Assembly (NCBI GenBank): GCA_038065715.1
Contig: JBBTQL010000004.1
Location: forward strand, 35,693 to 99,692
From: Patescibacteria group bacterium
Lineage (GTDB): Bacteria > Patescibacteriota > Minisyncoccia > Minisyncoccales > Staskawiczbacteraceae
DNA length: 64,000 bases
Direction: 5' to 3'
How positions within the stretch are numbered: the stretch's first letter is position 1; the number at the start of each line of letters is the position of its first letter. Shown piece after piece: positions 11,620-62,201 of this stretch. A program made the position numbers and the translations under genes. The notes below the pieces were generated by a model, which ran no database searches, had not been told where the DNA came from, and worked only from the letters and a program-made list of their open reading frames with translations.

Positions 11620-12513
11620 ATGCCAGAGCTTCCAGAAGTAGAAACAACGGTGCGCGGTTTAAATTCAAAGGTCCTAAAAAGGGCCTTTGTTGATGTGTGG
11701 TCAGATTGGGAAAGAATAATTAAAAAACCAGACAATTTTGAAGTTTTTAAAAAAAATATAAAAGGTAAAAAAATAGAAAAAATATGGCGCCGCGCTAAAA
11801 ATATTATTTTTGATTTATCTGAAGAAAGTTCTCTTTTAATCCACCAAAAAATGACAGGCCATCTTTTGCATGGAACATGGAACATAAAACATGAAACATG
11901 GACGCCGGCTGAAAAAGGTCCATTGAATGACCCGATGAATCGTTTTATTCATTTAATATTTTTTTTAGACAATGGAAAAATGCTCGCTTTGTCTGATGCA
12001 AGAAAATTTGCCAAAGTTGAATTATGGAAAACAGAAGAATTATTAAAAGAATTTGATAATTTAGGGCCAGAACCGCTGGACAAAAATTTTACTTTTGAAA
12101 AGTTTAAAGAAAGATTGTTGCGGCAAAACCCGCCTTCGCCAAGGCTTCGGCGGGGCAAAGTAAAACAGGTTTTAATGAATCCAGAAATAATTGCAGGCAT
12201 TGGAAATATTTATTCTTCAGAGGCATTGTGGCATGCAAAAATACATCCAGAAAAAGAAATCCAAAAATTAAATGGCAAAGAACTAAAAAATATTTATAAT
12301 TCTATTAAAAAAGTTTTAGAGTTGGGGGTGAAATTGGGAGGAGAAAGTTTCTCAGACTACAGAAAACCAGACGGCAGCAAAGGAAATTTTGACACAGAAA
12401 GAAGGGCTTATAAAAGGGAGGGGCAAAAATGCCATAGATGCGGGACAAAAATAAAAAGAATAAAATTTGGCGGCAGAAGCGCATTTTTTTGCCCCCACTG
12501 CCAAAAACTATGA
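11620..12513 (+). CDS. mutM: formamidopyrimidine-DNA glycosylase (Fpg/MutM)
   Basis: MPELPEVETTVRGL N-terminus; C-terminal zinc finger CHRCGTKIKRIKFGGRSAFFCPHCQ; carries GC-rich in-frame insert at 12130-12155. Confidence 0.9.
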   Translation: MPELPEVETTVRGLNSKVLKRAFVDVWSDWERIIKKPDNFEVFKKNIKGKKIEKIWRRAKNIIFDLSEESSLLIHQKMTGHLLHGTWNIKHETWTPAEKGPLNDPMNRFIHLIFFLDNGKMLALSDARKFAKVELWKTEELLKEFDNLGPEPLDKNFTFEKFKERLLRQNPPSPRLRRGKVKQVLMNPEIIAGIGNIYSSEALWHAKIHPEKEIQKLNGKELKNIYNSIKKVLELGVKLGGESFSDYRKPDGSKGNFDTERRAYKREGQKCHRCGTKIKRIKFGGRSAFFCPHCQKL

Positions 12514-12526: not shown

Positions 12527-13331
12527 TAGAGACCCGATCTCGCACAACTCACACAAAAAAATACTATGCCATATAGAAAAGAACAATTTGTGAACGGAGA
12601 TATTTATCACATTACCAATAGAGCAATTGATGATAACTTAATTTTTAAAGATAAAAACGATTATTATCGCGGTATTTTTTCTATTTATGAATTTAATAAT
12701 GAAAAACCTGTGAATATATCTAATAGAAGACGAGATCGGATTGTCGAAAAAGAAAGAGAAAAACCGTGTGAGACCGGGTCTCATGCGAAGCTTTCTTCGG
12801 ATGAAAGGGAAAAGTTGGTGGATATTTTTGCATTTTGTTTTATGCCAAATCATATTCATCTTTTGGTAAAACAGCTGGAAGATAATGGAATAACTAATTT
12901 TATGAAAAAAGTCGGCATAGGATATGGAGGTTATTTTAATAGAAAATATCAGCGCAAAGGTTATGTTTTCCAAAACAGATTTAAATCAGTTCACATAGAG
13001 AATGACAATCAATTTATGGTGGTTGTGCCGTACATATTTACAAATCCCACCGCATTAATAGAGCCAGGGTGGAAAGGACAGGGGATCAAAAATCACTCCA
13101 CCAAAGAGGTGCTTAAATTTTTAGAAGAATACAAGTGGTCAAGTTATCAAGATTGTATTGGAATTAAGAATTTTGATTCTGTCACACAAAGAGATTTTTT
13201 ATTAGAAATGATGGCAGGCAAACAAGGTTGTAAAGACGCAGTTGAAAATTGGATAAAAAATAAAGTCGAAATTGGACAGCACGCAAATATTTTATTAGAT
13301 TAAAAACCGTGTGAGATCGGGTCTCACACAG
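12527..13331 (+). mobile_element. RAYT/IS200-like HuH transposase unit flanked by REP-like hairpins
   Basis: GAGACCCGATCTC.. at 12529-12554 is inverted copy of ..GTGTGAGATCGGGTCTCACAC at 13306-13330; third near-identical copy inside the ORF at 12761-12788. Confidence 0.5.
12566..13303 (+). CDS. Y1 HuH tyrosine transposase (IS200/IS605 TnpA-like / REP-associated tyrosine transposase)
   Basis: 245 aa; HuH motif FMPNHIHLLV; C-terminal GGYFNRKYQRKGYVFQNRF resembles catalytic-Tyr/GxLWQxRF region of Y1 transposases. Confidence 0.7.
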   Translation: MPYRKEQFVNGDIYHITNRAIDDNLIFKDKNDYYRGIFSIYEFNNEKPVNISNRRRDRIVEKEREKPCETGSHAKLSSDEREKLVDIFAFCFMPNHIHLLVKQLEDNGITNFMKKVGIGYGGYFNRKYQRKGYVFQNRFKSVHIENDNQFMVVVPYIFTNPTALIEPGWKGQGIKNHSTKEVLKFLEEYKWSSYQDCIGIKNFDSVTQRDFLLEMMAGKQGCKDAVENWIKNKVEIGQHANILLD

Positions 13332-13332
13332 C

Positions 13333-14316
13333 TTGCTAAAAATGATTTATTTTATTTACGGGGAAGATTCTTACAGGTCAAAAAAGAAATTAGAAGAGAT
13401 AATTTTAGGTTACAAAAAAGTCCATAAATCAGGATTAAATTTGGTTTATGTTGATGCTGGTAAAACAGACTTTAATGATTTTTACAGCAATTTTAAAATT
13501 ACCTCAATGTTTGCTGAAAAAAAACTGATAGTTTTAAAAAATGTTTTTTCTCGCCCTGAACGCGCCGAAGGGCCAAGTCAAAAGTTTCAGGAGGAGTTTT
13601 TAGAAAATTTTAAAAATTTAGAAAAAATTGAAGATATAATTATTGTTTTTGAATATGATGCGGTTGATGAAAGAAAAAAGCTTTTTAAAATTTTAAAAAA
13701 AGAAACAAAATGCCAGGAGCTCTCTTTTCTTTTTGGGCTAAGCCTAAAAAAATGGGCAAAAGAGGAGTTCGAAAAAAACAAAACAAAAATTAATCCTGAC
13801 GCAGAAGACTTGCTTTTGGCTTTTACGGGAAACGATCTCTGGCAATTAGCAAATGAGATAAATAAATTATCAAATTATAAAAGAGAGGGGTACTCGCTGC
13901 CAGGTCTTATAAAAAAAGAAGATGTTGAGCTTTTAGTAAGGCCTAAGTTAGAAAATGATATTTTTAAAACAATTGAAGCCATGGCTCAAAAAAATAAAAA
14001 AGAAGCTTTTTCTTTATTGCATAAGCATATTGAAAATGGAGACAACGCCCTTTATCTGCTTTCAATGATTGCCTACCAGTTTAAAAATCTTTTAATAATA
14101 AAAGAACTTATTGAAAAACGCCTGCCCTATGCTGTTGTTTCAAAAAACAGCGGGCTTCACCCGTTTGTTGTTAAAAAAACATATTATTTGTGCGGCCAGT
14201 TTTCATTTAACGAACTAAAAAAAATCTACCAAAAAATTTTTCAGGCAGATTTAGATATTAAAACAGGTAAGATTGATCCAGAACTCACCTTAGATTTATT
14301 AGTTTCAGAAGTATAG
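13333..14316 (+). CDS. holA: DNA polymerase III delta subunit
   Basis: N-terminus (M)IYFIYGEDSYRSKKKLEEII and FAEKKLIVLKN typical of HolA; ~325 aa. Confidence 0.65.
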   Translation: MLKMIYFIYGEDSYRSKKKLEEIILGYKKVHKSGLNLVYVDAGKTDFNDFYSNFKITSMFAEKKLIVLKNVFSRPERAEGPSQKFQEEFLENFKNLEKIEDIIIVFEYDAVDERKKLFKILKKETKCQELSFLFGLSLKKWAKEEFEKNKTKINPDAEDLLLAFTGNDLWQLANEINKLSNYKREGYSLPGLIKKEDVELLVRPKLENDIFKTIEAMAQKNKKEAFSLLHKHIENGDNALYLLSMIAYQFKNLLIIKELIEKRLPYAVVSKNSGLHPFVVKKTYYLCGQFSFNELKKIYQKIFQADLDIKTGKIDPELTLDLLVSEV

Positions 14317-19034: not shown

Positions 19035-21083
19035 TTAAGGTGAAGGGTCAATAGCTGGTGGATTATTTATTAAATCTCTAATTTCTGCCGCTCTTTCAAA
19101 GTCTAAATTTTTAACGGCTATTTTCATTTCTTTTTCCAGTAATTTCCTGTCGTGTACTGCCCAAAATTCTTCTGAAACAACTTCTTTTTTTGAAAAACCC
19201 CAATCGCGTATGTCTTTTATTATTGCTTTTGGATTTATTTTATTTTTTTTATTGTAAGCTATTTGTATTTTTCTTCTTCTGTTTATTTCGTCAATGGCTG
19301 ACTGCATAGAAAAAGTAGTTTTGTCTGCATATAAAATAACGCGCCCCTGAAGGTGCCTTGCGGCCCTGCCCATTGTTTGTATTAAGGTTGTTTTATTTCT
19401 TAAAAAACCTTCTTTGTCAGCGTCTAAAATTGCAACCAATGAAACTTCGGGCAGATCAATCCCCTCTCTTAGAAGATTTATTCCAACTAAAACATCGTAT
19501 TTTCCCTCTCTTAAATCTTTTAAAATTTTAGGCCTTTCCATTGTTTTTATTTCAGAATGCAGATATTGGGTTTTGATTCCTCTTTCAATTAAATAATCAG
19601 AAATTTCTTCTGCCAATCTTTTTGTTAAAGTTACAACTAAAACCCTATGTTTTTTAGCAGTTTCTTTTTTAATTTCTTTTATTAAGTCTTTAATTTGATT
19701 CTCGGTTTTTTTGATTTCAATTGATGGTTCTAATAATCCGGTTGGCCTTATAAGCTGTTCAACAATATTTTTGCCTGATTTGTGTTTTTCATAATCGGCT
19801 GGAGTTGCTGAAACATAAATTGTCTGCCCGCCTGCAACGGCTATGCCGTAGGCATTGCGGGCAGGCTTTTGCCTTTTTTCAAATTCTGCAAAAGTTAAAG
19901 GCCTGTTATCAACTGCAGAGGGCAAACGAAATCCAAAATCAATTAAAGTTTCTTTTCTTATTTTATCTTGAACCGACATAGCGCGAATTTGCGGAATTGA
20001 AATATGCGACTCATCAATAAAAATTAACGACCCTTTAGGATTGAAGTAATTAAAATAATCAACCAAAGAAAATGGAGCTTCGCCATGTTTTCTAAATTCC
20101 AAATGCCTTGAATAGTTTTCTATTCCATGGCAAAAGCCAACCTCTTGCATCATCTCTACGTCATAATTTGTTCTTTGCCCTAATCTTTCTGCTTCCAGTA
20201 ATTTTTTTTGTTCATTTAATTTTTTTAGCTGTTCGTGCAATTCTAATTTTATATTTTCTATGGCTATATTTATTTTGTCTTTTGGAGCCACCCAAAAAGT
20301 TGCGGGGAATAGACATAAATTTGAAATTTGAAATTTGAAATTTGAAATTTCGATATTTTTATCGTTAGTTTTTTTTCTGTAAATTTTTTTTATAATATCA
20401 TTGCCAAATTCAATTCTAATAATTTCTTCGCCTGTTACTAAAAATATATCTATAATATCTCCCCTGACACGAAAAGTGGCTGGCTTAAAATCCCAGCCCG
20501 CATTGCTACGCGAAGCGTTGCTGGCGGGAATATCATTTCTTTTATATTGCAAAGCTATAAGATGTGAAATAAATTCTTTGCGTTTTATTTTTTGCCCGGG
20601 GTTTATATCCAAAGAAACATTTTGATAGTTTTCAGGCGAGCCAATATTATAAATGCACGACACAGAAGCCACTACAATTACATCTTTACGCGACAGAACA
20701 TCTTGAACTGCCGAATGCCTTAACCTGTCAATTTCTTCATTTATTTTTGCATCCTTTTCTATATATGTGTCTGATTGCGGGATATAGGCTTCGGGCTGGT
20801 AATAATCATAATAAGAAACAAAGTAATGCACGGCGTTGTTTGGAAAAAATTCTTTAAATTCCTGGTAGAGCTGGGCAGCTAAAGTTTTGTTTGGAGAAAT
20901 AACTAAAGTAGGTTTTTGGATTTTTTGTATAACATTAGCTAATGTGAAAGTTTTGCCCGAGCCAGTAACGCCTAAAAGCACCTGGTCTTTTACGCCATGT
21001 TTGAGATTATTAGTCAGTTCTCTTATTGCTCGTGGCTGATCTCCGGTAGCTGAGAATTTAGATTTTAATTTAAAGTTGGTCAT
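19035..21083 (-). CDS. uvrB: excinuclease ABC subunit B
   Basis: 682 aa; Walker A GVTGSGKTFT, helicase motifs, C-terminal UVR domain; contains (AAATTTG)5 heptamer array at 20317-20351 in frame. Confidence 0.95.
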   Translation of the reverse strand: MTNFKLKSKFSATGDQPRAIRELTNNLKHGVKDQVLLGVTGSGKTFTLANVIQKIQKPTLVISPNKTLAAQLYQEFKEFFPNNAVHYFVSYYDYYQPEAYIPQSDTYIEKDAKINEEIDRLRHSAVQDVLSRKDVIVVASVSCIYNIGSPENYQNVSLDINPGQKIKRKEFISHLIALQYKRNDIPASNASRSNAGWDFKPATFRVRGDIIDIFLVTGEEIIRIEFGNDIIKKIYRKKTNDKNIEISNFKFQISNLCLFPATFWVAPKDKINIAIENIKLELHEQLKKLNEQKKLLEAERLGQRTNYDVEMMQEVGFCHGIENYSRHLEFRKHGEAPFSLVDYFNYFNPKGSLIFIDESHISIPQIRAMSVQDKIRKETLIDFGFRLPSAVDNRPLTFAEFEKRQKPARNAYGIAVAGGQTIYVSATPADYEKHKSGKNIVEQLIRPTGLLEPSIEIKKTENQIKDLIKEIKKETAKKHRVLVVTLTKRLAEEISDYLIERGIKTQYLHSEIKTMERPKILKDLREGKYDVLVGINLLREGIDLPEVSLVAILDADKEGFLRNKTTLIQTMGRAARHLQGRVILYADKTTFSMQSAIDEINRRRKIQIAYNKKNKINPKAIIKDIRDWGFSKKEVVSEEFWAVHDRKLLEKEMKIAVKNLDFERAAEIRDLINNPPAIDPSP

Positions 21084-21181: not shown

Positions 21182-21787
21182 ATGATAGCATTTTTATCGG
21201 GTAAAATTTTATTAAAAAAGGACAAGTTTATCATTCTTGAAGCAGCTGGCGTTGGCTACAAAGTTTTTTTAAATCAGCAAACCCTATCCCGACTCGATCG
21301 AGGATCCTCGACGACTTCGTCGTCGGGATTAAAATTATCAGAAATAGGGCAGGATGTAAAGCTATTTTGCTTCCAAAATATAAAAGAAGATGCTTCGGAT
21401 TTATATGGGTTTTTAAGTTATGACGAGCTTGATTTTTTTGAGGTGCTAAACGATATTCATGGCGTAGGGCCAAAAGCTGCTTTGGAAATTTCTGTGTTAG
21501 GCCCCTTAGAAAAAATTAAGGACAGAATTTTAGCGCAGGACGAAAAAATATTTGAAGGAATTCCCGGAATTGGTTCAAAAAGGGCGTCGTCAATTATTTT
21601 AGAATTGACCGGAAAAATAATGGCGAAGTCCGCCTTTGCTAAAGCTTCGCCAGACGAAGCAGAAACCGCTTTAACCCAGCTTGGTTTTTCAAAACAGCAA
21701 GCAAAGGATGCCCTGGCTCGCGTGCCTGTTGCTGTTAAAAATTCTGAAGACAGAATAAAATTAGCGCTTAAAAATTTAGGAAAATAA
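21182..21787 (+). CDS. ruvA: Holliday junction branch migration protein RuvA
   Basis: MIAFLSGKILLKKDKFIILEAAGVGYKVF N-terminus, HhH GVGPKAALEI, C-terminal domain III; true start ATG 21182 (ORF-track start 21098 lies in GC-rich non-coding element); in-frame GC hairpin insert 21286-21329. Confidence 0.85.
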   Translation: MIAFLSGKILLKKDKFIILEAAGVGYKVFLNQQTLSRLDRGSSTTSSSGLKLSEIGQDVKLFCFQNIKEDASDLYGFLSYDELDFFEVLNDIHGVGPKAALEISVLGPLEKIKDRILAQDEKIFEGIPGIGSKRASSIILELTGKIMAKSAFAKASPDEAETALTQLGFSKQQAKDALARVPVAVKNSEDRIKLALKNLGK

Positions 21788-22748: not shown

Positions 22749-22788
22749 TGCTACCATTATTTAAAACTTTGTGTTAGATTGGGTAAAT

Positions 22789-24039
22789 ATGAGGATAAAA
22801 GAAGCAGTTAAAAAAATATTAGGCAGAAATTTGTTGGGTTTTTATCATTATGGCATGGCTTTTTTGGGAGCTGTGATTTTTGGTTTTCCATCTAAAAATT
22901 TAACTGTTATAGGGGTTACAGGCACCAGCGGTAAATCAACTACTTCTGATTTTATCACAAGAATTTTAGAAGAACCCTTCGACGGGGCCCAGGGCAGGTC
23001 TGGCAATAAGGTGGCTTCAATTTCAACAATAAGATTTAAAATTGCAGAAAAAGAATGGGAAAATAAATATAAAATGACAATGCCCGGCCGTTTTGTTATT
23101 CAAAAGTTTTTAAGGCAGGCAAAAAAAGCAGGATGCAAATTTGTGGTTTTAGAAGTTACTTCGCAAGGCATTGAACAATATCGCCATAAATTTATAAATT
23201 TTGATACAGCTGTTTTTACTAATTTGTCGCCAGAGCATATTGAAAGCCATGGCAGTTTTGAAAATTACAGAAACGCAAAACTAAAACTATTTCGAGCAAC
23301 AAAAAACATCCATATTATAAATACTGATGACGCAAATTCAAAATATTTTTGGAATATTCCGGCAAAACAAAAAATTGGATTTTCAGCCAAAGATGCGCAA
23401 AACGCTAATTTAAAATTAAATTTAATTGGAGACTTTAATATTTTAAACGCCTTAGCGGCAATTTCTGCGGCAAAGGCATATGGCATTGATTTTAGCATTT
23501 GTAAAAGGGCGCTGGAAAAGGCCAAAGGAATTTCTGGCAGAATGGAAGTGATTCAAAAAGAGCCATTCAAAGTTATTGTTGACTATGCTCATACTCCAGA
23601 ACAACTCGAAAGTGTCTATAAGGCACTTTCTCAAAACCCAAAACCTCAAACTCCAAACCCCAAACTTATTTGTGTGCTTGGAAGTTGCGGCGGGGGAAGG
23701 GATAAATGGAAAAGGACTGTTTTAGGAGAAATTGCAAATAAATATTGCGACAAAATATTTATAACCAATGAAGATCCATATGATGAAAACCCCAACCAGA
23801 TTTTATCTGAAATAAAATCTGGAATTATCAATTCTCAATTTCCAATTTCCAATTTATATGAAATTTTAGACCGTAAAGAGGCAATTAAAACTGCAATAAA
23901 ATTAGCAAAATCAGATGATATTGTTATAATCACTGGCAAGGGTTCAGAATCCTGGATGTGCATAGCAAACGGTAAAAAAATCCCCTGGGACGACAGGCAA
24001 ATCGCTAAAGATGCGTTGGGGCTCCAAACCTTGACATAG
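22789..24039 (+). CDS. Mur ligase family protein (MurE/MurF-like UDP-N-acetylmuramoyl peptide ligase)
   Basis: P-loop GVTGTSGKSTT; Mur ligase middle and C-terminal domains; in-frame inserts at 22977-22994 (GC hairpin) and 23828-23855 (heptamer repeat). Confidence 0.75.
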   Translation: MRIKEAVKKILGRNLLGFYHYGMAFLGAVIFGFPSKNLTVIGVTGTSGKSTTSDFITRILEEPFDGAQGRSGNKVASISTIRFKIAEKEWENKYKMTMPGRFVIQKFLRQAKKAGCKFVVLEVTSQGIEQYRHKFINFDTAVFTNLSPEHIESHGSFENYRNAKLKLFRATKNIHIINTDDANSKYFWNIPAKQKIGFSAKDAQNANLKLNLIGDFNILNALAAISAAKAYGIDFSICKRALEKAKGISGRMEVIQKEPFKVIVDYAHTPEQLESVYKALSQNPKPQTPNPKLICVLGSCGGGRDKWKRTVLGEIANKYCDKIFITNEDPYDENPNQILSEIKSGIINSQFPISNLYEILDRKEAIKTAIKLAKSDDIVIITGKGSESWMCIANGKKIPWDDRQIAKDALGLQTLT

Positions 24040-24218: not shown

Positions 24219-24878
24219 ATGGCTGTGCAAGTCATTGGCGATCTATATGTGGAGTTGGATGGGAAGTTGGCGGAGATTAAGCGGCAAATGAGGCAGCAGG
24301 GAGGCTATCCGTTTGACCCGGAGAAATTAAACAAGTTTCTCCAACTAGCTGTCGAGGGCAGGTTCAACGACAACCGGTGCTGGTGCGAGAAGGAAGGAGT
24401 GATCTACTTTGAGGTCACCTCTGACGGCACGACTGGACCCCAATGGATTGAGCGTCTGGAGAAGAAGGGTATCCAGCTCTCCAAGTGGGCCAAGGACGTC
24501 CTGCTGTCTCCGGACTTCAAGCCGACCAACGGCGTGACCACCGAGATCGCTGTCCTCAAGGGCGCGCTTTTTATGGACAATGATCGCATCACGTCTAAGA
24601 TCCGCGCTGAGGCCGACAAGCGCAAGCTCGTCAAGCCCGAAGCCGAACTCGGTTGCCTTATCCGCGACACGTTCACGGACGAGGAAATCGAAGCCATGGG
24701 TCTTGTGTGGATCGTGGCGTTCCACGAGCCCATCAAGGACTCTGACGGCGATCCGACGTTGCTCGGTGCGCGTCGCCTTGGCGATGGCCGTTGGCTGCGC
24801 GCGTGCTGCGGCCTGCCCGACCGCAGGTGGCTTCGCGACCGTGGCTTTGCCTTCGCCGTCTCGCAAGTATCTTCGTAA
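24219..24878 (+). CDS. DGR target protein (variable C-terminus, probable C-type lectin-like fold)
   Basis: 219 aa; ~60% GC in 33% GC genome; AAAGGAG RBS; C-terminal ...GARRLGDGRWLRACCGLPDRRWLRDRGFAFAVSQVSS encoded by VR. Confidence 0.7.
   Translation: MAVQVIGDLYVELDGKLAEIKRQMRQQGGYPFDPEKLNKFLQLAVEGRFNDNRCWCEKEGVIYFEVTSDGTTGPQWIERLEKKGIQLSKWAKDVLLSPDFKPTNGVTTEIAVLKGALFMDNDRITSKIRAEADKRKLVKPEAELGCLIRDTFTDEEIEAMGLVWIVAFHEPIKDSDGDPTLLGARRLGDGRWLRACCGLPDRRWLRDRGFAFAVSQVSS
24741..24866 (+). other. DGR variable region VR1
   Basis: 126 nt aligning 1:1 with TR1 25208-25333; 22 of 23 mismatches fall at TR adenines. Confidence 0.8.
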
Positions 24879-25207: not shown

Positions 25208-25333
25208 TCTGACGGCGATCCGAACTTGCTCAGTGCGAATCGCAATGACGATGGCCATTGGCTGAACGCGTACTACGACAAGCCCGACAACAGGTGGAAT
25301 CGCGACAATGGCTTTGCCTTCGCCGTCTCGCAA
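25208..25333 (+). other. DGR template repeat TR1 (non-coding)
   Basis: Adenine-rich (AAC-rich) near-copy of VR1; followed by diverged IMH-like end; preceded by conserved CAAGGGGCAGTGGCATAGATGG element shared with DGR-2. Confidence 0.8.
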
Positions 25334-25339
25334 CTCTCT

Positions 25340-25699
25340 TCATTTCTCTCCTTGCTTAGGAGAGTTTTGTTTAATAATTTGTCCCGACCAACCACCGAGC
25401 ATTTTGCCAATTTCATCTAGTTTCAATGATAGAGCAATATATTTTTTGTTATCCAATGATTTTGTTTCCCAAAGAATCATTAAAAATATTTTTAACGTAT
25501 CGACCTTTCTAATTGCTAAACGTACATAGGACAATTTTTCTGATTGCCCAAGAAAACTTGCAGTCACTATTGCCTCTATTGCTTCAACAAAAAGTTTATC
25601 AATTTTTTCACCAAGAGAATATTTATGTATTTTTGGTATAATTAAATAGTGTTGGTACCAAAAAAGATAAGCTTCTTTCAACTTTTGCAAAACAGGCAA
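25340..25699 (-). CDS. Avd-like accessory variability determinant (four-helix-bundle family)
   Basis: ~120 aa from TTG 25699; paralog of 63274-63642; C-terminal ...KLDEIGKMLGGW motif; antisense to TR and RT. Confidence 0.55.
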   Translation of the reverse strand: MPVLQKLKEAYLFWYQHYLIIPKIHKYSLGEKIDKLFVEAIEAIVTASFLGQSEKLSYVRLAIRKVDTLKIFLMILWETKSLDNKKYIALSLKLDEIGKMLGGWSGQIIKQNSPKQGEK

Positions 25700-25739
25700 C
25701 AGTCTGGGGGGGGGGATTAAAAGCTGAGTTATTTTGATT

Positions 25740-26726
25740 ATGAAAATTACTTTGCAACATAAATACGAAGACATCATAAGCGTTGAGAATATTTTGGAAG
25801 CATGGCAAGAGTTTCTTCTCGGCAAAAGAAACAAGCCCGATGTTCAAGAATTTTCTCTCTGTCTGATGAATAATGTTTTTAATTTGCACAACGACTTATC
25901 CAATCATACCTACAAACACGGAGGCTATCAACAATTTAAAATTAACGACCCAAAGCCAAGAACAATCCACAAAGCCAGCGTAAAAGACAGATTATTGCAC
26001 CACGCAGTATATCGTATATTATACCCGTTTTTTGATAAAAAGTTTATTGCAGACTCTTTCTCTTGCAGAAACAACAAAGGCACTCATAAAGCATTAAACA
26101 AATTCAGGGAGTTCAGCTATATTGTTTCCAAAAACAACACAAACACCTGCTGGATTTTAAAATGCGACATAAAAAAGTTTTTTGCCAGCGTTGATCAGCA
26201 GATACTAATTAAAATTTTAGAAAAATATATTTCAGAAAAAGATATTATCAACTTTCTAAAAGAAATAATTTTTGGTTTTAAACCCAATGGTTTGCCTCTC
26301 GGTAATTTGACTTCCCAGTTGTTCGCAAATGTTTATCTGAATGAATTTGACCAGTTTGTAAAACACAAATTGAAAGTAAAATACTATATTAGGTATGCCG
26401 ATGACTTCGTAATTTTATCAGAGAACAAAAATTATTTAAAAAACATAATTCCAGAGCTAAAATATTATTTAAAAAACAATTTAAAACTGGAAATTCATCC
26501 AAATAAAATTTTTATTAAAACATTGAATTCTGGCGTTGATTTTTTAGGCTGGATTAATTTTACAGATCATAGAGTTTTAAGGACAAAAACTAAAAACAGA
26601 ATATTAAAGAGAATAAAAAATAATTCAAGTATTGAAACATTAAATTCTTATTCGGGTTTGTTAAAACATGGAAATATGAACAAAATGATTAAGAAATTAT
26701 TTAAGGAAACGGAGATTGCTTTTTAA
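25740..26726 (+). CDS. DGR reverse transcriptase
   Basis: RT motifs incl. YADD and DGR-diagnostic LGNLTSQLFANVYL (IGxxxSQ); ~328 aa. Confidence 0.85.
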   Translation: MKITLQHKYEDIISVENILEAWQEFLLGKRNKPDVQEFSLCLMNNVFNLHNDLSNHTYKHGGYQQFKINDPKPRTIHKASVKDRLLHHAVYRILYPFFDKKFIADSFSCRNNKGTHKALNKFREFSYIVSKNNTNTCWILKCDIKKFFASVDQQILIKILEKYISEKDIINFLKEIIFGFKPNGLPLGNLTSQLFANVYLNEFDQFVKHKLKVKYYIRYADDFVILSENKNYLKNIIPELKYYLKNNLKLEIHPNKIFIKTLNSGVDFLGWINFTDHRVLRTKTKNRILKRIKNNSSIETLNSYSGLLKHGNMNKMIKKLFKETEIAF

Positions 26727-28561: not shown

Positions 28562-28653
28562 AATTAAATTTTATAAACGAATTTTTAATTTTTAATTTAT
28601 AATTTTTAATTATAGTATCGCATAAATCGCGATAATGTTTATTTTATTTTAAA

Positions 28654-39152: not shown

Positions 39153-39830
39153 ATGAATAAGGAAACTATAATAATTTCACTGGGTGGGTCGCTTGTAGCG
39201 CCGGGGGAAATTGATATTGGATTTTTGAAGAATTTTAAGCACGCTTTGTTAAAATACTTAAAGTTAAAGCGTTTTTTTATTATTGTAGGCGGAGGCAAAA
39301 TTTGCAGAAATTACCAAAAAACATTATCAGAATTTGGCGCAAAAGATGTTGATAAGGACTGGATAGGAATAAATGTTTCAAAATTAAACGCAGAAGTTGT
39401 AAAACAGGTTTTTTCTAAGTTTTCTTTTTCTGAAATTATTACAAACCCTACAAAAGAAATAACAACTAAAAAAGATATTGTTGTAGCGTCTGGCTGGAAA
39501 CCTGGCCGCTCTACTGATTACTGCTCCGTTGTGATGGCAAAAAAAGCCGGTATTAAGACGATTATAAACTTAACAAATATTGATTATGTTTACGATAAAG
39601 ACCCAAAACAGTTTCCTGGAGCTAAAGCCATAAAAGAAATAAGCTGGAAAGATTTTAGAAAAATTATTGGTGATAAATGGAGCCCTGGATTGTCAGCTCC
39701 CTTTGACCCTGAGGCTTCAAAAATTGCAGAAAAATTAAAATTAAAGGTGGCAATGATTAACGGCAAAAATTTAGAACGCCTTGAAGATTTTTTAAACAGT
39801 AAGCCATTTATTGGAACTATTATTCAATGA
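39153..39830 (+). CDS. amino-acid kinase family protein, putative UMP kinase
   Basis: IIISLGGSLVAPGE ... VGGGKICR signatures of the AAK fold; 225 aa. Confidence 0.55.
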   Translation: MNKETIIISLGGSLVAPGEIDIGFLKNFKHALLKYLKLKRFFIIVGGGKICRNYQKTLSEFGAKDVDKDWIGINVSKLNAEVVKQVFSKFSFSEIITNPTKEITTKKDIVVASGWKPGRSTDYCSVVMAKKAGIKTIINLTNIDYVYDKDPKQFPGAKAIKEISWKDFRKIIGDKWSPGLSAPFDPEASKIAEKLKLKVAMINGKNLERLEDFLNSKPFIGTIIQ

Positions 39831-41482
39831 TAAAAGAAGAAATAAAAAAAATAGTGGAAAACTCAATTAAAAACCTGCAAAAACAGGGCGCATTTTTAAA
39901 ATTAAAAATGCCAGAAATTTTAATTGAGCGGCCTAAAGAAAAAATACGCGGTGACTATTCAACCAACATTGCCTTTGTAATTGGAAAAGATGTTTTGAAA
40001 AATCCATTTGAAACGGCATTGCTTTTGAAAACAGAAATTGTCTCGCTTTGCGAGATCTCGCGCAGCGAGAAAAAACAAAAATCTGTAATAGAAAAAGTTG
40101 AGGTAGTGGGAGGGTTTATTAATTTTTTTGTTGCTGACGATTATTTTAAAAATCAGCTGCAAATTATTTTAAAACAAAAAAACAAATTTGGAGATTTAAA
40201 ACTTGGTAAAAGTCAAAAAGTAAACATAGAATTTATTTCTGCAAATCCAACAGGGCCGTTAACTTTAGGAAACGGCAGAGGAGGATTTTGTGGCGATGTT
40301 TTGGCTAATGTTTTAGAAAAAGCAGGATATAAAGTTGAAAGAGAATATTATATTAACAATACCGGAGCTCAAATTAAAAAACTTGGGCATTCTGTAATTG
40401 GAGATGCAGAAGCTGTTTACAAAGGAAAATATATTATTGATTTAAGAAACAAAGTTAAGGGAGATGACCCCGAGAAAGTTGGAGAAAAATCGGCAAAAAT
40501 TATTTTAGAAAAAATGATAAAGCCGTCTGTAAAAAAAATGGGAATTAAATTTGACACATGGTTTTCAGAAAAAACTCTCTATAAAAATAAAGAAGTAGAT
40601 AAAACAATACAAGAATTGGCTAAAAAAGGGTTCACCTATGAAAGCGAAGACGCTGTGTGGTTTAAATCTAAAGAATTGGGCGATGACAAAGACAGGGTTT
40701 TGGTGAGAGCCGACGGAATTAAAACATATTTTGCTTCAGATATTGCTTATTTTAAAAATAAATTTAAAAGAGGGTTTGGTAAACTTATTATGTTTTTGGG
40801 AGCCGACCACTATGGATATGTTCCGAGGCTAAAAGCTGCCTCGCTTGCTTTTGGTTTTAAAAAAGACAGTATTGATGCTATTGTTATGCAGTTGGTGCGG
40901 CTTTATGAAAAAGGCAAAGAAGTAAGAATGGCAAAAAGGACTGGTATTTATGTAACAATAGATGAGTTAATTGGCGAGGTTAGTTTGGATGTTGCCAGAT
41001 TTTTCTTTTTAATGATAAGCCCTAATACCCACATGAATTTTAATTTGGATTTAGCAAAAGAAAAATCAGAGAAAAATCCGGTTTTTAAAGTGCAATATGC
41101 GCATGCCCGAATTTGCTCAATTTTCCGAAAATTTGGAAATTTCAAATTTTCCCGATTTCATCGAGGATCCTCAATGGCAAAGCCATCGGGACAAATTTCA
41201 AATTTAAAATTATTAAATGAGCCGAGCGAGTTAGGGTTAATTAGAGAATTAATTAAACTTCCAGAAATTATTGAAGAGATAGCTAAAGATTATCAAGTTC
41301 AAAGACTACCGCAATACGCAATGGATTTAACTGATGCATTCCATAGATTTTATGAAAACTGTAAAGTCCTGAGCGAAGTCGAAGGATTGCGTGATGCCCG
41401 CTTGTCTCTTGTTATGGCAACAAAAATTGTTTTAAAAAATACATTAGACTTAATGGGAATATCTGCTCCTGAAAAAATGTGA
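39827..41482 (+). CDS. argS: arginine--tRNA ligase
   Basis: SANPTGPLTLGNGRGG class I motif; C-terminal DALK-type anticodon-binding domain; in-frame AAATTT-type repeat plus GC hairpin insert 41108-41190. Confidence 0.9.
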   Translation: MIKEEIKKIVENSIKNLQKQGAFLKLKMPEILIERPKEKIRGDYSTNIAFVIGKDVLKNPFETALLLKTEIVSLCEISRSEKKQKSVIEKVEVVGGFINFFVADDYFKNQLQIILKQKNKFGDLKLGKSQKVNIEFISANPTGPLTLGNGRGGFCGDVLANVLEKAGYKVEREYYINNTGAQIKKLGHSVIGDAEAVYKGKYIIDLRNKVKGDDPEKVGEKSAKIILEKMIKPSVKKMGIKFDTWFSEKTLYKNKEVDKTIQELAKKGFTYESEDAVWFKSKELGDDKDRVLVRADGIKTYFASDIAYFKNKFKRGFGKLIMFLGADHYGYVPRLKAASLAFGFKKDSIDAIVMQLVRLYEKGKEVRMAKRTGIYVTIDELIGEVSLDVARFFFLMISPNTHMNFNLDLAKEKSEKNPVFKVQYAHARICSIFRKFGNFKFSRFHRGSSMAKPSGQISNLKLLNEPSELGLIRELIKLPEIIEEIAKDYQVQRLPQYAMDLTDAFHRFYENCKVLSEVEGLRDARLSLVMATKIVLKNTLDLMGISAPEKM

Positions 41483-59467: not shown

Positions 59468-62014
59468 ATGAATATGGCAAAATATAATCCTCAAAAAATT
59501 GAGAAGAAATGGCAAGAGGCTTGGTATAAATCAAGCATTTTTAAAGCTAAAAACGGGTCTAAAAATAAGAAATTTTACCTTTTAGTGGAGTTTCCTTATC
59601 CTTCGGGAGACGGGCTTCATGTCGGCCATTGCCGAAGCTATACTGCCTTAGATATTATTGCCAGAAAAAAAAGAATGCAGGGATTTAATGTTTTATTCCC
59701 AATGGGCTGGGACGCTTTTGGATTGCCAACTGAAAATTATGCCATAAAAAAGGGAGTACACCCGTCTGTTGTGACAAAAAAGAATACAGATAACTTTAGG
59801 CGGCAGATGAAAAGTTTGGGGCTTTCTTTTGACTGGAGCCGAGAAATAAATACCACAGACCCAAAATATTATAAATGGACGCAGTGGATTTTTTTGCAGT
59901 TATTTAAAAATAACTTGGCTTATAAAGATAAAATTGCAATCAACTGGTGCCCTAAAGATAAAATTGGATTGGCAAATGAAGAAGTGATAAATGGCAAATG
60001 CGAAAGATGCGGCGCAAAAGTTGAAAAAAGAGATAAAGAGCAATGGATGATAAAAATTACAAAATATGCCGACAGATTAATTGAAGATTTAAATTTAGTT
60101 GATTATTTAGAAAAAATAAAAATACAGCAGAAAGATTGGATAGGCGAGTCACATGGAGCGTTGATAAAATTTTCGTTAGAAGGAAGCGAAGAATTCATAG
60201 AAGTTTTTACAACCAGAATAGACACAATATTTTCTGGCACGTTTTTAATTTTATCTCCAGGACACAATTTTATAGATAAATATAAAAATAAAATTGAAAA
60301 CATTGATGAAGTTTTAAAATATAGAGAAACCGCAAAAAATACTTCTGATATAGATAGAACTAATCAAGATAAAGATATTACAGGAGTGGAATTAAAAGGA
60401 ATTACAGTAAAAAATCCTGCCACAAATGAAGAAATGCCAGTTTGGACAGCTGATTTTGTTTTAGAGCAATACGGAACAGGAGTCGTTTTTGCTGATGCCC
60501 ATGATAAAAGAGATTTTAAAATGGCAAAAAAATATGGGATACCTTTGCGAACTTCAATAAAACCAGAAAATGAACTATCGGCGCAAAAAGCAAAAAATTT
60601 GGAAGAATGTTTTGAGGGCGAAGGCGCTCTTTATAATTCTATGCATTTTGACGGCTTAACTTCTTCTGAAGCCCGACCTAAAATAATTTCTTGGTTAAGG
60701 GAAAAAGGATATGCGGAAAACAAAATAAGCTATAAGCTTCGAGATTGGGTTTTTTCGCGCCAGCATTATTGGGGCGAGCCAATACCAATGATTTTTTGCG
60801 TAAAATGCGGTTGGCAGGCTGTTTTAGAAAAAAATCTGCCCGTTGAATTGCCTAAGGTAAAAAAATATCAGCCAACAGATACAGGCGAATCTCCTCTTTC
60901 TGCTATTGAAAAATGGGTAAATGTAAAATGTCCAAAATGCAAAGGACCGGCAAAAAGAGAAACAGACACAATGCCTAATTGGGCAGGTTCAAACTGGTAT
61001 TACTTGGCATATACTATGCCAAAAATTTCAAATTTCAAATTTCAAATTTCAAATTCTGCGAAAGAATTTTCGCAGTGGATGCCAGTTGACTGGTATAATG
61101 GCGGAATGGAGCACACAACTTTGCATTTATTGTATTCAAGATTTATTTTTAAATTTTTATGGGATATTGGAGCTGTTCCAAAAATAATTGGGGCAGAACC
61201 ATATAAAAAAAGAACTTCGCATGGAATGATTTTAGGCGAAGGGGGAATTAAAATGTCAAAGTCAAAGGGAAATGTAATAAATCCAGATTCAGTTGTGAAA
61301 CAATATGGAGCCGACACCTTAAGAGTTTACGAAATGTTTATCGGGCCTTTTGAGCAAATGATTCCTTGGGATATAAAGGGGGTTGTTGGTTCGCGCAGGT
61401 TTTTAGAAAAAATTTACAACTTAGTTTTGAAGAAGGCAATTCCGGCAAAAATCCCGACGGTCTCGCCGTCGAGGACCCGCGACGAAGTCGGGGCAGAAGA
61501 AAATTTTAAAAAACTTTTGCATAAAACAATAAAAAAGGTTGGTGACGATATTGAGGCAATGAAATTTAACACAGCAGTGAGCTCTTTAATGGAATTTGTA
61601 AATGCATGGAGCATTGCTGAAAATAGTTTAGATAAACCAGCCTCCGATAAAGGCTACGGCTTGGCGAAGAAAGATTTGCAAGAATTTTTAAAGATTTTGT
61701 CGCCTTTTGCCCCGCATTTGTCAGAAGAGCTTTGGCAAAGAGCTGGATTTAAAGGTTTGTGCTGCGCTCAAAAATGGCCTAAGTATGACGAAAAATTAAT
61801 TGAAGAAAAAAACATATTGCTTATTGTGCAAATTAACGGTAAAGTTAGAGATAAAATAGAAGTTAACGCAGGCATTACTCAAAAACAAGCTGAAGAAATA
61901 GTTTTAAAATTAGAAAAAATTAAAAACCGTATAACTAATATTAAAGAAGTGGAAAAAGTTGTTTTTGTGCCAGGTAAGTTAATAAATTTTGTGACTATTG
62001 ACAAGGATAAGTAA
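59468..62014 (+). CDS. leuS: leucine--tRNA ligase
   Basis: HVGHCRSY (HIGH), KMSKSKGN; 848 aa; in-frame (AAATTTC)4 array 61023-61057 and GC hairpin insert 61453-61494. Confidence 0.9.
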   Translation: MNMAKYNPQKIEKKWQEAWYKSSIFKAKNGSKNKKFYLLVEFPYPSGDGLHVGHCRSYTALDIIARKKRMQGFNVLFPMGWDAFGLPTENYAIKKGVHPSVVTKKNTDNFRRQMKSLGLSFDWSREINTTDPKYYKWTQWIFLQLFKNNLAYKDKIAINWCPKDKIGLANEEVINGKCERCGAKVEKRDKEQWMIKITKYADRLIEDLNLVDYLEKIKIQQKDWIGESHGALIKFSLEGSEEFIEVFTTRIDTIFSGTFLILSPGHNFIDKYKNKIENIDEVLKYRETAKNTSDIDRTNQDKDITGVELKGITVKNPATNEEMPVWTADFVLEQYGTGVVFADAHDKRDFKMAKKYGIPLRTSIKPENELSAQKAKNLEECFEGEGALYNSMHFDGLTSSEARPKIISWLREKGYAENKISYKLRDWVFSRQHYWGEPIPMIFCVKCGWQAVLEKNLPVELPKVKKYQPTDTGESPLSAIEKWVNVKCPKCKGPAKRETDTMPNWAGSNWYYLAYTMPKISNFKFQISNSAKEFSQWMPVDWYNGGMEHTTLHLLYSRFIFKFLWDIGAVPKIIGAEPYKKRTSHGMILGEGGIKMSKSKGNVINPDSVVKQYGADTLRVYEMFIGPFEQMIPWDIKGVVGSRRFLEKIYNLVLKKAIPAKIPTVSPSRTRDEVGAEENFKKLLHKTIKKVGDDIEAMKFNTAVSSLMEFVNAWSIAENSLDKPASDKGYGLAKKDLQEFLKILSPFAPHLSEELWQRAGFKGLCCAQKWPKYDEKLIEEKNILLIVQINGKVRDKIEVNAGITQKQAEEIVLKLEKIKNRITNIKEVEKVVFVPGKLINFVTIDKDK

Positions 62015-62201
62015 ATATGCTATGATTAATAATACAGCTCTTTTTAAGTGAAAATACTTGCAAAAACAGCGGTTATAGCCAAAAGCGACCGAAGGTCGTC
62101 CTGAGCAGAGCCGAAGGACAACAAATCGGTATTTTCTGGCTATGACTGCTATGGTAGTAGTCAAGCGAAATGGTGAAACCCTAAAGAAAGGAAAAAGCAC
62201 C

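What the first reader, a model, noticed from the sequence alone, without database searches (positions are those of the whole stretch)
20317..20351. AAATTTC heptamer tandem arrays embedded in frame in uvrB, leuS, a Mur ligase and argS, always in mRNA sense
(AAATTTG)4-AAATTTC sits inside uvrB (minus gene, so the mRNA reads AAAUUUC repeats). (AAATTTC)4 sits inside leuS at 61023-61057. CAATTTC-type units sit in the Mur ligase at 23828-23855. AAATTT-type octamer units sit in argS at 41108-41158. UvrB and LeuRS thereby carry the same peptide, ISNFKFQISN. In argS the array directly abuts a GC-rich hairpin insert (likewise 20295-20316 in uvrB), suggesting a composite element. A consistent orientation relative to transcription, across genes on both strands, argues for a transcription- or RNA-linked insertion mechanism, or for selection on the encoded peptide.
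Basis: seen in the sequence. Interest (0 to 1): 0.7.

Follow-up and report, generated by a model that had tools for sequence, protein, structure and literature searches.

The report
In-frame heptamer microsatellites in housekeeping genes
The AAATTTC runs are real 7-base microsatellites that sit in frame in loops of essential genes across a whole clade of ultra-small (CPR) bacteria; their "always sense" orientation is mostly explained by the opposite orientation creating stop codons, so no RNA-linked insertion process is needed.

Summary
The core observation holds. (AAATTTC)~4.8 lies in frame in uvrB (20317-20350, minus) and leuS (61023-61055), and both encode ISNFKFQISN. argS carries the same ~34-nt array, split by a separate 42-nt GC-rich element. 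The Mur ligase has three CAATTTC units.

The arrays are not private insertions. In 2.66 Mb from about 165 related Parcubacteria loci, period 7 is almost the only period forming good tandem arrays (39, against 1 each for periods 8 and 12). 63 of 74 arrays are genic, with a sharp length mode at 32-34 nt. The same sites in UvrB, Mur ligase (two sites), ArgRS, LeuRS and Fpg carry arrays in many genomes. Different lineages have different, internally uniform units (AAATTTC, CAAACTA, AAATGTC, CAAAAGT and others).

Inverting AAATTTC gives TGA in all three frames. This applies to 43 of 63 genic units, so selection accounts for much of the orientation.

The supposed uvrB "hairpin" is the conserved LFPATFW motif. 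The argS hairpin is a later insertion, absent from the closest relative.

Best reading: heptamer-specific slippage microsatellites filtered by frame, stop codons and peptide tolerance.

One open point remains. Arrays in the same genome share a unit more often than chance (P about 0.01-0.02).

The parts
20317..20350 (-). (AAATTTC)4.9 perfect heptamer array in uvrB. It encodes E-ISNFKFQISN-L at the end of UvrB domain 2, just before the conserved LFPATFW motif.
61023..61055 (+). (AAATTTC)4.7 perfect heptamer array in leuS. It encodes K-ISNFKFQISN-S in a variable loop between WYYLAY and VDWYNGG.
41135..41149 (+). Left half of the argS heptamer array (GGAAATTTCAAATTT). Together with 41192-41211 it reconstitutes a ~34-nt (AAATTTC)-type array encoding GNFKFQISNLKLL.
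41192..41211 (+). Right half of the argS heptamer array (CAAATTTCAAATTTAAAATT).
41150..41191 (+). Separate 42-nt (14-codon) GC-rich palindromic element, TCCCGA...TCGGGA, inserted into the argS array. It is absent from the closest relative and is not part of the heptamer system.
23829..23855 (+). (CAATTYC) array of about 3.9 units (2.9 perfect) in the Mur-ligase ORF, at hot spot 2 before YE(K)ILD. Relatives carry AAATTCC, AAATTCG, AAATCCG or AATTTCC arrays at this site.
23634..23665 (+). (AAACCCC)-type degenerate heptamer array, 4.6 copies at 80% match, in the Mur-ligase ORF at hot spot 1 before LICVLG. It encodes QNPKPQTPNPK. Relatives carry AAAACTC, AAACAAG, AAACTAC or AAATTTC arrays at this site.
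11869..11902 (+). (CATGGAA)-type degenerate heptamer array, 4.9 copies at 85% match, in fpg. It encodes HGTWNIKHETW. The same site is heptamer-periodic in L003, L005, L035 and L040.
28580..28611 (.). Intergenic (AATTTTT)4.6 heptamer array.
19035..21083 (-). Host gene uvrB (682 aa).
59468..62014 (+). Host gene leuS (848 aa).
39827..41482 (+). Host gene argS (551 aa).
22771..24039 (+). Host gene encoding a Mur-ligase family protein (422 aa).

Best explanation
The arrays are heptanucleotide microsatellites (simple sequence repeats) that live inside insertion-tolerant surface loops of housekeeping proteins in this CPR/Parcubacteria clade (Candidatus Staskawiczbacteria and neighbours).

Shown:
- Only period 7 forms such arrays.
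- They occupy the same orthologous sites in many genomes.
- Each lineage has its own internally uniform unit.
- Genic arrays cluster at 32-34 nt.
- One array-free leuS allele is exactly 21 nt (3 units) shorter than its array-bearing relatives.
- Inverted units would mostly create stop codons.

Inferred mechanism:
1. Strand misalignment during replication or repair, with a preferred 7-nt step, expands A-rich proto-repeats.
2. Selection then keeps only products that preserve the frame (net changes of 3 units, or compensated changes).
3. Selection also requires that no frame carry a stop. This forces a C, or a T, between the T-run and the A-run on the sense strand, which yields CAAATTT/AAATTTC as the simplest AT-rich solution.
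4. The encoded heptad must be tolerable in a loop. These heptads are rich in K, S, N, Q, F and I.
5. Arrays longer than about 5 units are not seen in genes, presumably because the frameshift load becomes too high.
6. Arrays decay by point mutation and are occasionally re-homogenised. This produces different perfect units at one old site.

UvrB and LeuRS share ISNFKFQISN because a 7-nt repeat yields the same 7-residue repeat in every frame, and because AAATTTC is the commonest unit in the clade. The GC-rich hairpin in argS is an unrelated 42-nt element that landed in the array later.
For: Period specificity:
- Perfect arrays of 3.5 units or more number 21 for period 7, 3 for period 4 and 0 for periods 5, 6 and 8-12, in 1.48 Mb.
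- TRF on 2.66 Mb finds 39 good arrays of period 7, against 1 of period 8 and 1 of period 12.

Orthologous hot spots with different units:
- The uvrB site carries AAATTTC, CAAACTA, AAATGTC, AAAATTC, AAGTTTC and others.
- At that site, lag-7 identity is 0.46 against 0.31 in controls. 15 of 45 loci reach 0.55 or more, against 1 of 540 control windows.
- Both Mur-ligase sites, Fpg, ArgRS and LeuRS behave the same way.

Length and steps:
- Genic lengths have a mode at 32-34 nt and a maximum of 5.7 copies. Non-genic arrays reach 7.6 copies.
- L088 leuS lacks the array and is exactly 21 nt shorter than L087, L107, L108, L120, L122, L123 and L151.

Orientation:
- GAAATTT gives TGA in all three frames.
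- 43 of 63 genic units are constrained in this way. Of the other 20, 16 have A>T on the sense strand.
- The uvrB and leuS/argS arrays lie on opposite DNA strands of one replichore, since dnaA and dnaN are just left of the window. Orientation therefore follows the coding strand, not replication.

Other points:
- Flanks of the arrays share nothing.
- The arrays replace variable loops of similar length in solved LeuRS and UvrB structures, adding only 4 to 5 residues.
- In the UvrB model the array region is mostly coil with short strand and helix stretches, with pLDDT 54-79.
Against: - No copy-number polymorphism was seen at population or strain level. Identical UvrB, LeuRS and ArgRS proteins occur in 4 independent assemblies, with a fifth argS copy differing by one residue outside the array. 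Three strains of 90% identity or more are identical across a degenerate uvrB array.
- At the uvrB site, 90 of 121 orthologues have the same segment length despite different units. Homogenisation there happened without a net length change, which simple slippage does not explain for essential genes.
- Going from about 2 to about 5 units by single-unit slips would pass through frameshifted intermediates.
- ArgRS loop lengths are not cleanly quantised in steps of 7 aa.
- Arrays in one genome share units more than expected. Independent in-situ slippage does not predict this.
Confidence: 0.6

Rival explanations
1. Copy-and-paste between dispersed arrays. Arrays at different loci of one genome exchange sequence, either by ectopic gene conversion or template switching between A/T-rich heptamer tracts, or through an unknown templated repeat-writing activity. 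An old degenerate array would then be overwritten in one step by a perfect ~33-nt donor array with the donor's unit and register. This would explain rejuvenation without a length change and without frameshifted intermediates.
For: - Same-unit pairs within a locus number 4 of 27 against 0.88 expected (P = 0.011).
- Excluding the window, the figure is 3 of 21 against 0.56 expected (P = 0.016).
- Mean unit distance is 2.11 against 2.52 (P = 0.03). The effect is not explained by GC content.
- In the window, uvrB and leuS arrays start at the same unit and codon phase. uvrB and argS share the 3' end ...CAAATTTCAAATTTA in the same frame.
- L086 has the rare unit AATTTCC in two different aaRS genes, both encoding ISNFQFPIS.
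- The closest relative has a different, degenerate unit (CAAGTTA) at the uvrB site at 86% protein identity.
Against: - The numbers are small: 4 pairs.
- Several genomes carry 2-3 arrays with different units (L047, L028, L056, L087, L010, L004, L075).
- 33 nt of A/T-rich homology is marginal for RecA-type conversion.
- No candidate enzyme or template was identified.
- AAATTTC is the commonest unit anyway: 9 of 51 genic arrays in the first 87-sequence set and still 9 of 63 in the full set.
Confidence: 0.2
2. Transcription- or RNA-linked insertion. A reverse transcriptase or other transcription-coupled process would insert AAATTTC arrays in mRNA orientation.
For: - All 63 genic arrays are in an A-rich or C-linked sense orientation. 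This includes 20 whose inversion would not create stops, and 16 of those have A>T on the sense strand.
- A DGR reverse transcriptase is present in the window.
Against: - Stop codons explain the orientation for 43 of 63 units. General coding-strand A-richness and peptide tolerance can explain the rest.
- Arrays sit at the same sites in dozens of genomes with different units. They are therefore not recent insertions.
- There are no clean empty or filled sites for arrays.
- The syntenic relative lacks the DGR cassette at that place but still has arrays.
- Intergenic arrays also exist.
Confidence: 0.05
3. A functional signal selected for itself. Candidates are a slippery X-XXY-YYZ site (A-AAU-UUC) for programmed frameshifting, a protein- or RNA-binding tract, or a specifically selected peptide module.
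For: - In one of its three registers AAATTTC fits the canonical slippery heptamer pattern. This is from sequence and general knowledge, and was not tested.
- Perfect arrays recur at fixed sites.
- FKFQISN has an alternating hydrophobic/polar pattern compatible with a beta-strand (inference).
Against: - Units, and hence peptides and any RNA motif, differ freely between lineages at the same site: KFQISNF, KLQTTNY, KCQMSNV, KSQKSKV and others.
- Many orthologues have decayed arrays.
- No Rfam family matches.
- Folding of the arrays is weak.
- Out-of-frame products would be truncated enzymes with no obvious use.
Confidence: 0.05
4. Phase-variable contingency loci of the neuO type, in which unit gain or loss switches the gene ON and OFF.
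For: - The unit length is not a multiple of 3, and the arrays lie inside coding sequence.
- neuO is a precedent: it has an A-rich heptanucleotide AAGACTC and is ON only when the copy number is divisible by 3 (PMC13001214).
Against: - The host genes are essential or housekeeping (LeuRS, ArgRS, Mur ligase).
- None of the 74 arrays lies at a frameshifted gene.
- Genic copy number is narrow, 2.9-5.7, against 3-53 in neuO.
- The host proteins are identical in four independent assemblies, with a fifth argS copy differing by one residue outside the array.
Confidence: 0.03

Closest known systems
Heptanucleotide simple sequence repeats of bacteria: Mrazek 2007 as cited in PMC4692102; Xanthomonas GGGAATC; Nostoc/Calothrix heptamer repeats (STRR)
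   Same: - Tandem 7-nt units.
- Heptamers are specifically over-represented relative to other long SSR periods.
- Length and sequence vary between related genomes at the same locus.
- Polymerase slippage with a ~7-nt footprint has been proposed as the cause.
   Different: - The known cases are G-rich and essentially intergenic.
- Here the arrays are A/T-rich and 85% lie inside genes, including essential ones.
- They are held in frame, capped at about 5 units, and occupy orthologous codon positions across a clade.
neuO coding heptanucleotide VNTR (AAGACTC) of the E. coli K1 CUS-3 prophage
   Same: - A heptanucleotide repeat inside an ORF.
- The A-rich strand is the sense strand.
- The unit fits the same CAAR-NNN theme.
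- The protein is made only if the total keeps the frame, and each 3 units add a heptad.
   Different: - neuO is a hypervariable ON/OFF contingency locus with 3-53 copies, and about 66% of genomes are OFF.
- Here copy number is narrow, no OFF alleles were found, and the hosts are housekeeping genes.
Perfect A-biased tandem repeats of Borg elements (PMC9879509)
   Same: - Perfect repeats with an A bias on the coding strand.
- They arise independently and recently.
- They are seeded at A-rich sequence and add new peptide to proteins.
- The mechanism is unresolved, with slippage and an enzyme-mediated process both considered.
   Different: - Genic units in Borgs have lengths divisible by 3, with many copies that create disordered regions.
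- Here the unit is always 7 nt and about 4.7 copies replace an existing loop.
In-frame palindromic insertion elements, such as Rickettsia palindromic elements (from general knowledge)
   Same: Short repeated DNA tolerated in frame within loops of conserved proteins. This description fits the 42-nt GC-rich element in argS and ruvA.
   Different: The heptamer arrays have no hairpin, no conserved ends and no clean empty sites. They are not this kind of element.

Membership tests
Slippage-type heptanucleotide SSR (microsatellite) | Head-to-tail copies of a short unit, in excess over chance | tested here: met
   - Perfect 4.7-4.9 copy arrays.
- Period 7 gives 39 good arrays, against at most 1 for any other period, in 2.66 Mb.
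Slippage-type heptanucleotide SSR (microsatellite) | Length differences between relatives in whole units | tested here: met
   - leuS: L088 is exactly 21 nt (3 units) shorter than seven array-bearing relatives.
- Only in-frame steps are seen inside genes.
- ArgRS lengths are less cleanly quantised.
Slippage-type heptanucleotide SSR (microsatellite) | Copy-number polymorphism within populations or close strains | tested here: inconclusive
   - Consensus proteins are identical in four assemblies, with one argS variant differing outside the array.
- Three close strains are identical over a degenerate array.
- Read-level data are not available.
Slippage-type heptanucleotide SSR (microsatellite) | No mobile-element hallmarks (conserved ends, TIR, TSD) | tested here: met
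   Flanks of about 30 arrays are unrelated. There is no significant fold.
Phase-variable contingency locus (neuO type) | Out-of-frame (OFF) alleles common among genomes | tested here: not met
   None of the 74 arrays lies at a frameshifted gene.
Phase-variable contingency locus (neuO type) | Wide copy-number range, with a host gene for a variable surface or accessory trait | tested here: not met
   Genic copy number is 2.9-5.7. The hosts are UvrB, LeuRS, ArgRS, Mur ligase and Fpg.
Mobile insertion element or RT-mediated insertion | Empty versus filled orthologous sites with clean boundaries | tested here: not met
   - Orthologous sites hold arrays with other units or decayed arrays.
- By contrast, the 42-nt GC element in argS does show a clean empty site.
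Mobile insertion element or RT-mediated insertion | Dependence on an element-encoded enzyme (DGR RT, RAYT) | not testable with these tools
   - Whole genomes are not available.
- The syntenic relative contig lacks the DGR cassette at that place yet has arrays.
Borg-type perfect tandem repeats (aaTR) | Genic unit length divisible by 3 | tested here: not met
   All units are 7 nt.
Borg-type perfect tandem repeats (aaTR) | Perfect repeats with an A bias on the coding strand | tested here: met
   Sense composition is A 168, T 94, C 67, G 28 over the 51 genic units of the first 87-sequence set. Many arrays are 100% perfect.

The most novel reading that the evidence does not exclude
A heptamer-specific repeat-writing or conversion process operates in Parcubacteria. 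It would install or refresh ~33-nt CAAR-WTT arrays at permissive codon positions of housekeeping genes in one in-frame step, using other arrays, or a common template, in the same genome as donor. Arrays of one genome would then share unit and register, as seen for window uvrB/leuS/argS and for the two aaRS genes of L086. Old sites would be repeatedly rejuvenated without frameshifted intermediates.
Probability: 0.2. Interest if true: 0.8.

Novelty: new variant of a known kind. Interest (0 to 1): 0.55.

Why it matters
Repeats whose unit is not a multiple of three are normally purged from essential genes, because each slip is a frameshift. Here a whole bacterial clade tolerates 7-nt microsatellites at fixed codon positions in aminoacyl-tRNA synthetases and in repair and cell-wall enzymes. 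No other period is seen. The length ceiling is sharp, and the unit turns over from lineage to lineage.

This provides a natural system for three questions. Why are heptamers the favoured long SSR in bacteria (the polymerase-footprint hypothesis)? How do reading frame and stop codons shape which repeats can exist in genes? How can short arrays be homogenised without changing length?

It also gives a practical warning. A strand bias of repeats relative to genes can be a pure translation filter, and need not be a mechanistic signature.

Tried and rejected
- GC hairpin at uvrB 20295-20316. The fold is no better than shuffles, and the region is the conserved LFPATFW motif. Rejected.
- Composite array-plus-hairpin element. 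The closest relative has the argS array without the 42-nt element, and the other copies of that element have no array flanks. Rejected.
- Orientation tied to replication. dnaA and dnaN lie just outside the window start, GC skew is monotonic, and arrays occur on both strands. Rejected.
- A phylogeny of UvrB to see whether AAATTTC lineages cluster. The neighbour-joining run timed out. UPGMA gives a star-like tree, with all distances about 0.15-0.20 apart from the closest relative at 0.09. AAATTTC-type sites are scattered across it, but the resolution is too low for a conclusion.
- Looking for 7-nt steps among three UvrB strains of 90% identity or more. The mid-gene array is identical in all three, and the 3' ends differ through unrelated divergence. 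Uninformative.
- Extending the source contig for more arrays of the same genome. No further heptamer array of the genic CAAR-WTT kind was found in about 10 kb to the left; TRF lists only a weak T-rich (TATTTTT)3.6 tract at L169 19350-19375. The look-up for the right end returned only a 980-nt contig.
- An IMG/VR scan for (AAATTTC)4. It found only 5 contigs, mostly intergenic and uninformative.
- Rfam. Only tmRNA matched, and nothing matched at the arrays.
- Literature searches for CPR or Patescibacteria SSRs. Nothing relevant was found.
Full report
SOURCE AND CONTEXT

The window is part of a 139.5-kb contig from Hainich groundwater (ENA ERZ1292632, Hain_H43_01um_R2_27). GC content is 34%. The best protein matches are Candidatus Staskawiczbacteria and other Parcubacteria/Patescibacteria. 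Translation table 11 gives full-length UvrB, LeuRS, ArgRS and Mur ligase with the expected Pfam domains. TGA is therefore a stop codon in this organism.

CHECKING THE OBSERVATION

- 20317-20350 is a perfect (AAATTTG)4.9. This reads as (AAATTTC)n in the sense of the minus-strand uvrB gene.
- 61023-61055 is a perfect (AAATTTC)4.7 in leuS. These are the two top-scoring tandem repeats in the window.
- Both proteins contain ISNFKFQISN.
- The two-unit pattern with up to 2 mismatches occurs 32 times against 12.5 expected, and no shuffle of 100 reaches 32.
- The Mur-ligase ORF has about 3.9 CAATTYC units at 23829-23855.
41108-41134 is the conserved AHARICSIFRKF coding sequence. The array proper is GGAAATTTCAAATTT (41135-41149) plus CAAATTTCAAATTTAAAATT (41192-41211), split by a 42-nt GC-rich segment. 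Removing that segment restores a ~34-nt (AAATTTC)-type array encoding GNFKFQISNLKLL.
- The alleged GC hairpin at 20295-20316 in uvrB encodes the nearly invariant LFPATFWVAP motif. It folds no better than shuffled sequence (z = 0.02).

WHY THE ORIENTATION IS ALWAYS SENSE

A 7-nt repeat passes through all three frames every 21 nt. Any frame of (AAATTTC)n therefore gives a cyclic permutation of KFQISNF. Any frame of the reverse complement (GAAATTT)n contains TGA. An antisense array of three or more units inside a gene is a nonsense mutation.

Across the relatives, 43 of 63 genic heptamer units have this property. Of the 20 that do not, 16 still have A>T on the sense strand. This is consistent with the general A-richness of coding strands and with tolerance of K/N/Q/S/T-rich loop peptides over F/L/W/C-rich ones.

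The sense-unit consensus is C-A-A-R-W-T-T. The C between the T-run and the A-run is what stop avoidance requires, because TGA, TAA and TAG are forbidden there. AAATTTC is simply the most AT-rich stop-free solution. It was the commonest unit in the first 87-sequence set (9 of 51 genic arrays) and remains so in the full set (9 of 63).

Orientation is not tied to replication. dnaA and dnaN lie just left of the window and cumulative GC skew rises monotonically from about 8 kb onward. Yet the uvrB array lies on the opposite DNA strand from the leuS and argS arrays.

THE ARRAYS ARE A CLADE-WIDE, SITE-FIXED PHENOMENON

I fetched 80 uvrB loci from GTDB genomes, 80 leuS loci from metagenomes and several syntenic contigs.

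Period specificity:
- In 1.48 Mb, perfect arrays of 3.5 units or more number 21 for period 7, 3 for period 4 and none for periods 5, 6 or 8-12.
- With TRF on 2.66 Mb, arrays with at least 3.5 copies and at least 90% match number 39 for period 7, 1 for period 8, 1 for period 12 and 0 for all other periods.

Distribution:
- Of 74 period-7 arrays, 63 lie inside long ORFs. That is 85%, against 93.5% of bases lying in such ORFs. Arrays are thus only mildly depleted in genes.
- Genic arrays have a sharp length mode at 32-34 nt (4.6-4.9 copies) and never exceed 5.7 copies.
- Non-genic arrays reach 7.6 copies.

Orthologous codon positions carry arrays in many genomes, with different units that are uniform within each array:
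- UvrB, before LFPATFW: AAATTTC (window, L014, L017, L028, L037), CAAACTA (L008), AAATGTC (L047), AAAATTC (L013), AAGTTTC (L023), plus degenerate versions in many others.
- At that UvrB site, mean lag-7 self-identity over 45 loci is 0.46 against 0.31 in control windows. 15 of 45 loci reach 0.55 or more, against 1 of 540 controls.
- Mur ligase, before LICVLG: AAACCCC (window), AAAACTC, AAACAAG, AAACTAC, AAATTTC.
- Mur ligase, before YEKILD: CAATTTC (window), AAATTCC, AAATTCG, AAATCCG.
- Fpg: CATGGAA-type arrays in five genomes.
- ArgRS: many variants, including uninterrupted GNFKFQISNFKLL in P0271 and P0274.
- LeuRS: most orthologues have DPKNNKKLADEKLLKYW with no array. A "LAY" subclade has AAATTTC (window), AATTTCC (L086), CAAAAGT (L087, perfect 5.1 copies), CAAAAAT (L122) and alternating CGAAACT/CGAAATC (L107, L108, L120, L151). 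L088 has no array and is exactly 21 nt shorter.

COMPARISON WITH THE CLOSEST RELATIVE

The relative is GCA_964555955, which is syntenic (UvrB 86%, ArgRS 81% and Mur ligase 78% identical).

- At uvrB it has a degenerate (CAAGTTA) array that is 12 nt shorter.
- At argS it has GGCAATTCCAAATTG|CAAATTTCAAATTTAAAA, with nothing between the two halves. The window's 42-nt TCCCGATTTCATCGAGGATCCTCAATGGCAAAGCCATCGGGA is thus a clean secondary insertion into an older array.
- That 42-nt element has a second copy with identical ends in the ruvA ORF (21287-21328; 2 matches against 0.02 expected), and a diverged copy near 8228-8272. Neither sits next to a heptamer array. The "composite element" idea fails.
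- The relative also lacks the DGR cassette that lies next to the Mur-ligase gene in the window, yet it still has arrays.

PROTEIN CONTEXT

- Against solved structures, the LeuRS array occupies a variable loop. It is 4 residues longer than in Thermus LeuRS and 2 residues shorter than in Mycoplasma LeuRS.
- The UvrB array covers the end of domain 2, adding 5 residues relative to the Bacillus caldotenax/Geobacillus UvrB structures.
- In an AlphaFold model of the window's UvrB (mean pLDDT 71), residues 246-257 are mostly coil with short strand and helix stretches. The pLDDT block means there are 54-79.
- The arrays overwrite loops rather than adding large insertions.

STABILITY

- The window's UvrB, LeuRS and ArgRS sequences each occur unchanged on four independent contigs; a fifth argS contig encodes a protein differing by one residue outside the array.
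- Three UvrB strains of 90% identity or more are 131/131 identical across a degenerate array.
- No array lies at a frameshifted gene.

These results argue against neuO-like phase variation. In neuO, the heptanucleotide AAGACTC has 3-53 copies and 66% of genomes are OFF (PMC13001214).

MECHANISM

The best-supported account is a heptamer-specific microsatellite process followed by a translation filter.

[quoted passage not shown] A proposed explanation is that 7 nt matches the DNA segment held in the polymerase active site (PMC4692102).
- The known cases (Xanthomonas, Nostoc) are G-rich and intergenic.
- In these CPR genomes the same bias would act on A-rich proto-repeats in loops.
- Selection would then pass only in-frame, stop-free arrays that are tolerable as peptides and short enough.
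- The 21-nt step in leuS, the 32-34-nt mode (about 1.7 proto-units plus 3 units) and the longer intergenic arrays all fit this account.

Some observations do not fit simple slippage.
- At uvrB, 90 of 121 orthologues keep the same segment length while carrying different homogeneous units. Homogenisation there happened without a net length change.
- Single-unit slips in essential genes would be lethal intermediates.
- Arrays within one locus share a unit more often than expected. The count is 4 of 27 pairs against 0.88 expected (P = 0.011). Excluding the window it is 3 of 21 against 0.56 expected (P = 0.016). Mean unit distance gives P = 0.03. The effect is not due to GC content.
- In the window and in L086 the shared arrays also share register: ISNFKFQISN twice, and ISNFQFPIS twice.

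This leaves room, at about 20%, for sequence exchange between dispersed arrays or a templated one-step process. The numbers are small, and several genomes carry arrays with different units.

COMPARISON WITH KNOWN SYSTEMS, AND NOVELTY

- The arrays work like bacterial heptanucleotide SSRs and are best filed there.
- They resemble the neuO coding heptanucleotide VNTR in being translated heptads. They fail its defining features of OFF alleles, wide copy range and an accessory-trait host gene.
- They resemble Borg tandem repeats in perfection and coding-strand A bias (PMC9879509). They fail the rule that genic units are divisible by 3.
- They are not mobile elements.
- Three literature searches found no description of such arrays in CPR or Patescibacteria.
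- I rate the finding as a new variant of a known kind. The sequence class and the likely mutational process are known. The setting is unusual: period 7 only, inside essential genes, at fixed orthologous positions, capped in length, with concerted unit turnover.

VERDICT

- The mechanistic inference of RNA-linked insertion and a composite element is not supported.
- The "selection" alternative is right in a broader sense.
- Interest is moderate to high (0.55). The phenomenon is cleaner and stranger than an ordinary microsatellite, and the within-genome unit sharing remains unexplained.

Noticed in passing
window 21287-21328, 41150-41191, ~8228-8272: A family of 42-nt (14-codon) GC-rich palindromic elements, TCCCGA-N30-TCGGGA with a central GAGGATCCTC, sits in frame in ruvA and argS. 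The argS copy is a clean insertion relative to the closest relative. It looks like an RPE/REP-like in-frame mobile element in an AT-rich CPR genome.
   Followed up: partly
window 20488-20534, 19818-19875 (uvrB) and many others listed: Numerous other GC-rich palindromic islands lie inside ORFs. In UvrB one encodes PASNASRSNAGW, a 12-aa gap against solved UvrB structures, and another encodes KPARNAYGIAVAGG. In the UvrB model the first (residues 185-198) has pLDDT below 50 and the second lies in blocks of mean pLDDT 61-70.
   Followed up: partly
window 24741-24874 and 25208-25341; RT ORF 25734-26726: A diversity-generating retroelement. The variable and template repeats form a 134-nt pair at 82% identity, next to an RVT_1 reverse transcriptase and a bAvd gene. 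The cassette is absent at the syntenic place in the closest relative.
   Followed up: partly
window 12566-13303, hairpins at 12762-12793 and 13307-13336: A Y1 (IS200/IS605 or RAYT-type) transposase gene, with CCGTGTGAGAYCGGGTCTCA hairpins within and just downstream of it.
   Followed up: no
window 61056-61075: A perfect 8-bp hairpin, CTGCGAAA-GAAT-TTTCGCAG, directly follows the leuS array and encodes SAKEFSQ. It is not present in relatives. Unexplained.
   Followed up: partly
window 38053-38403 (minus): A tmRNA gene, the only Rfam hit in the window.
   Followed up: no
just left of window position 1 (L169 12134-14825): dnaN and dnaA, and hence probably oriC, lie immediately outside the window start.
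   Followed up: partly
window 62142-62822 and 57766-57952: Strongly GC-rich segments in a 34% GC genome. The 226-aa ORF at 62142-62822 was found elsewhere only on a 980-nt Logan contig. They may be foreign DNA or a second DGR-type target.
   Followed up: no
L047 8835-8866; L037 12024-12057: Heptamer arrays at the extreme 3' end of uvrB in relatives. In L047 the (AAAAGTG) array itself supplies the TGA stop.
   Followed up: partly
L035 3-34: A contig ends inside an (AAATTTG)4.6 array. This suggests that such arrays can break assemblies, either because the same array occurs at several loci or because of heterogeneity.
   Followed up: no
L053 6475-6519 and L067 6657-6708: The longest arrays (6.4-7.6 copies) lie in what appears to be the same intergenic position in two genomes, between a ~340-aa gene and a ~482-aa gene. 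Intergenic hot spots may therefore also be orthologous.
   Followed up: no
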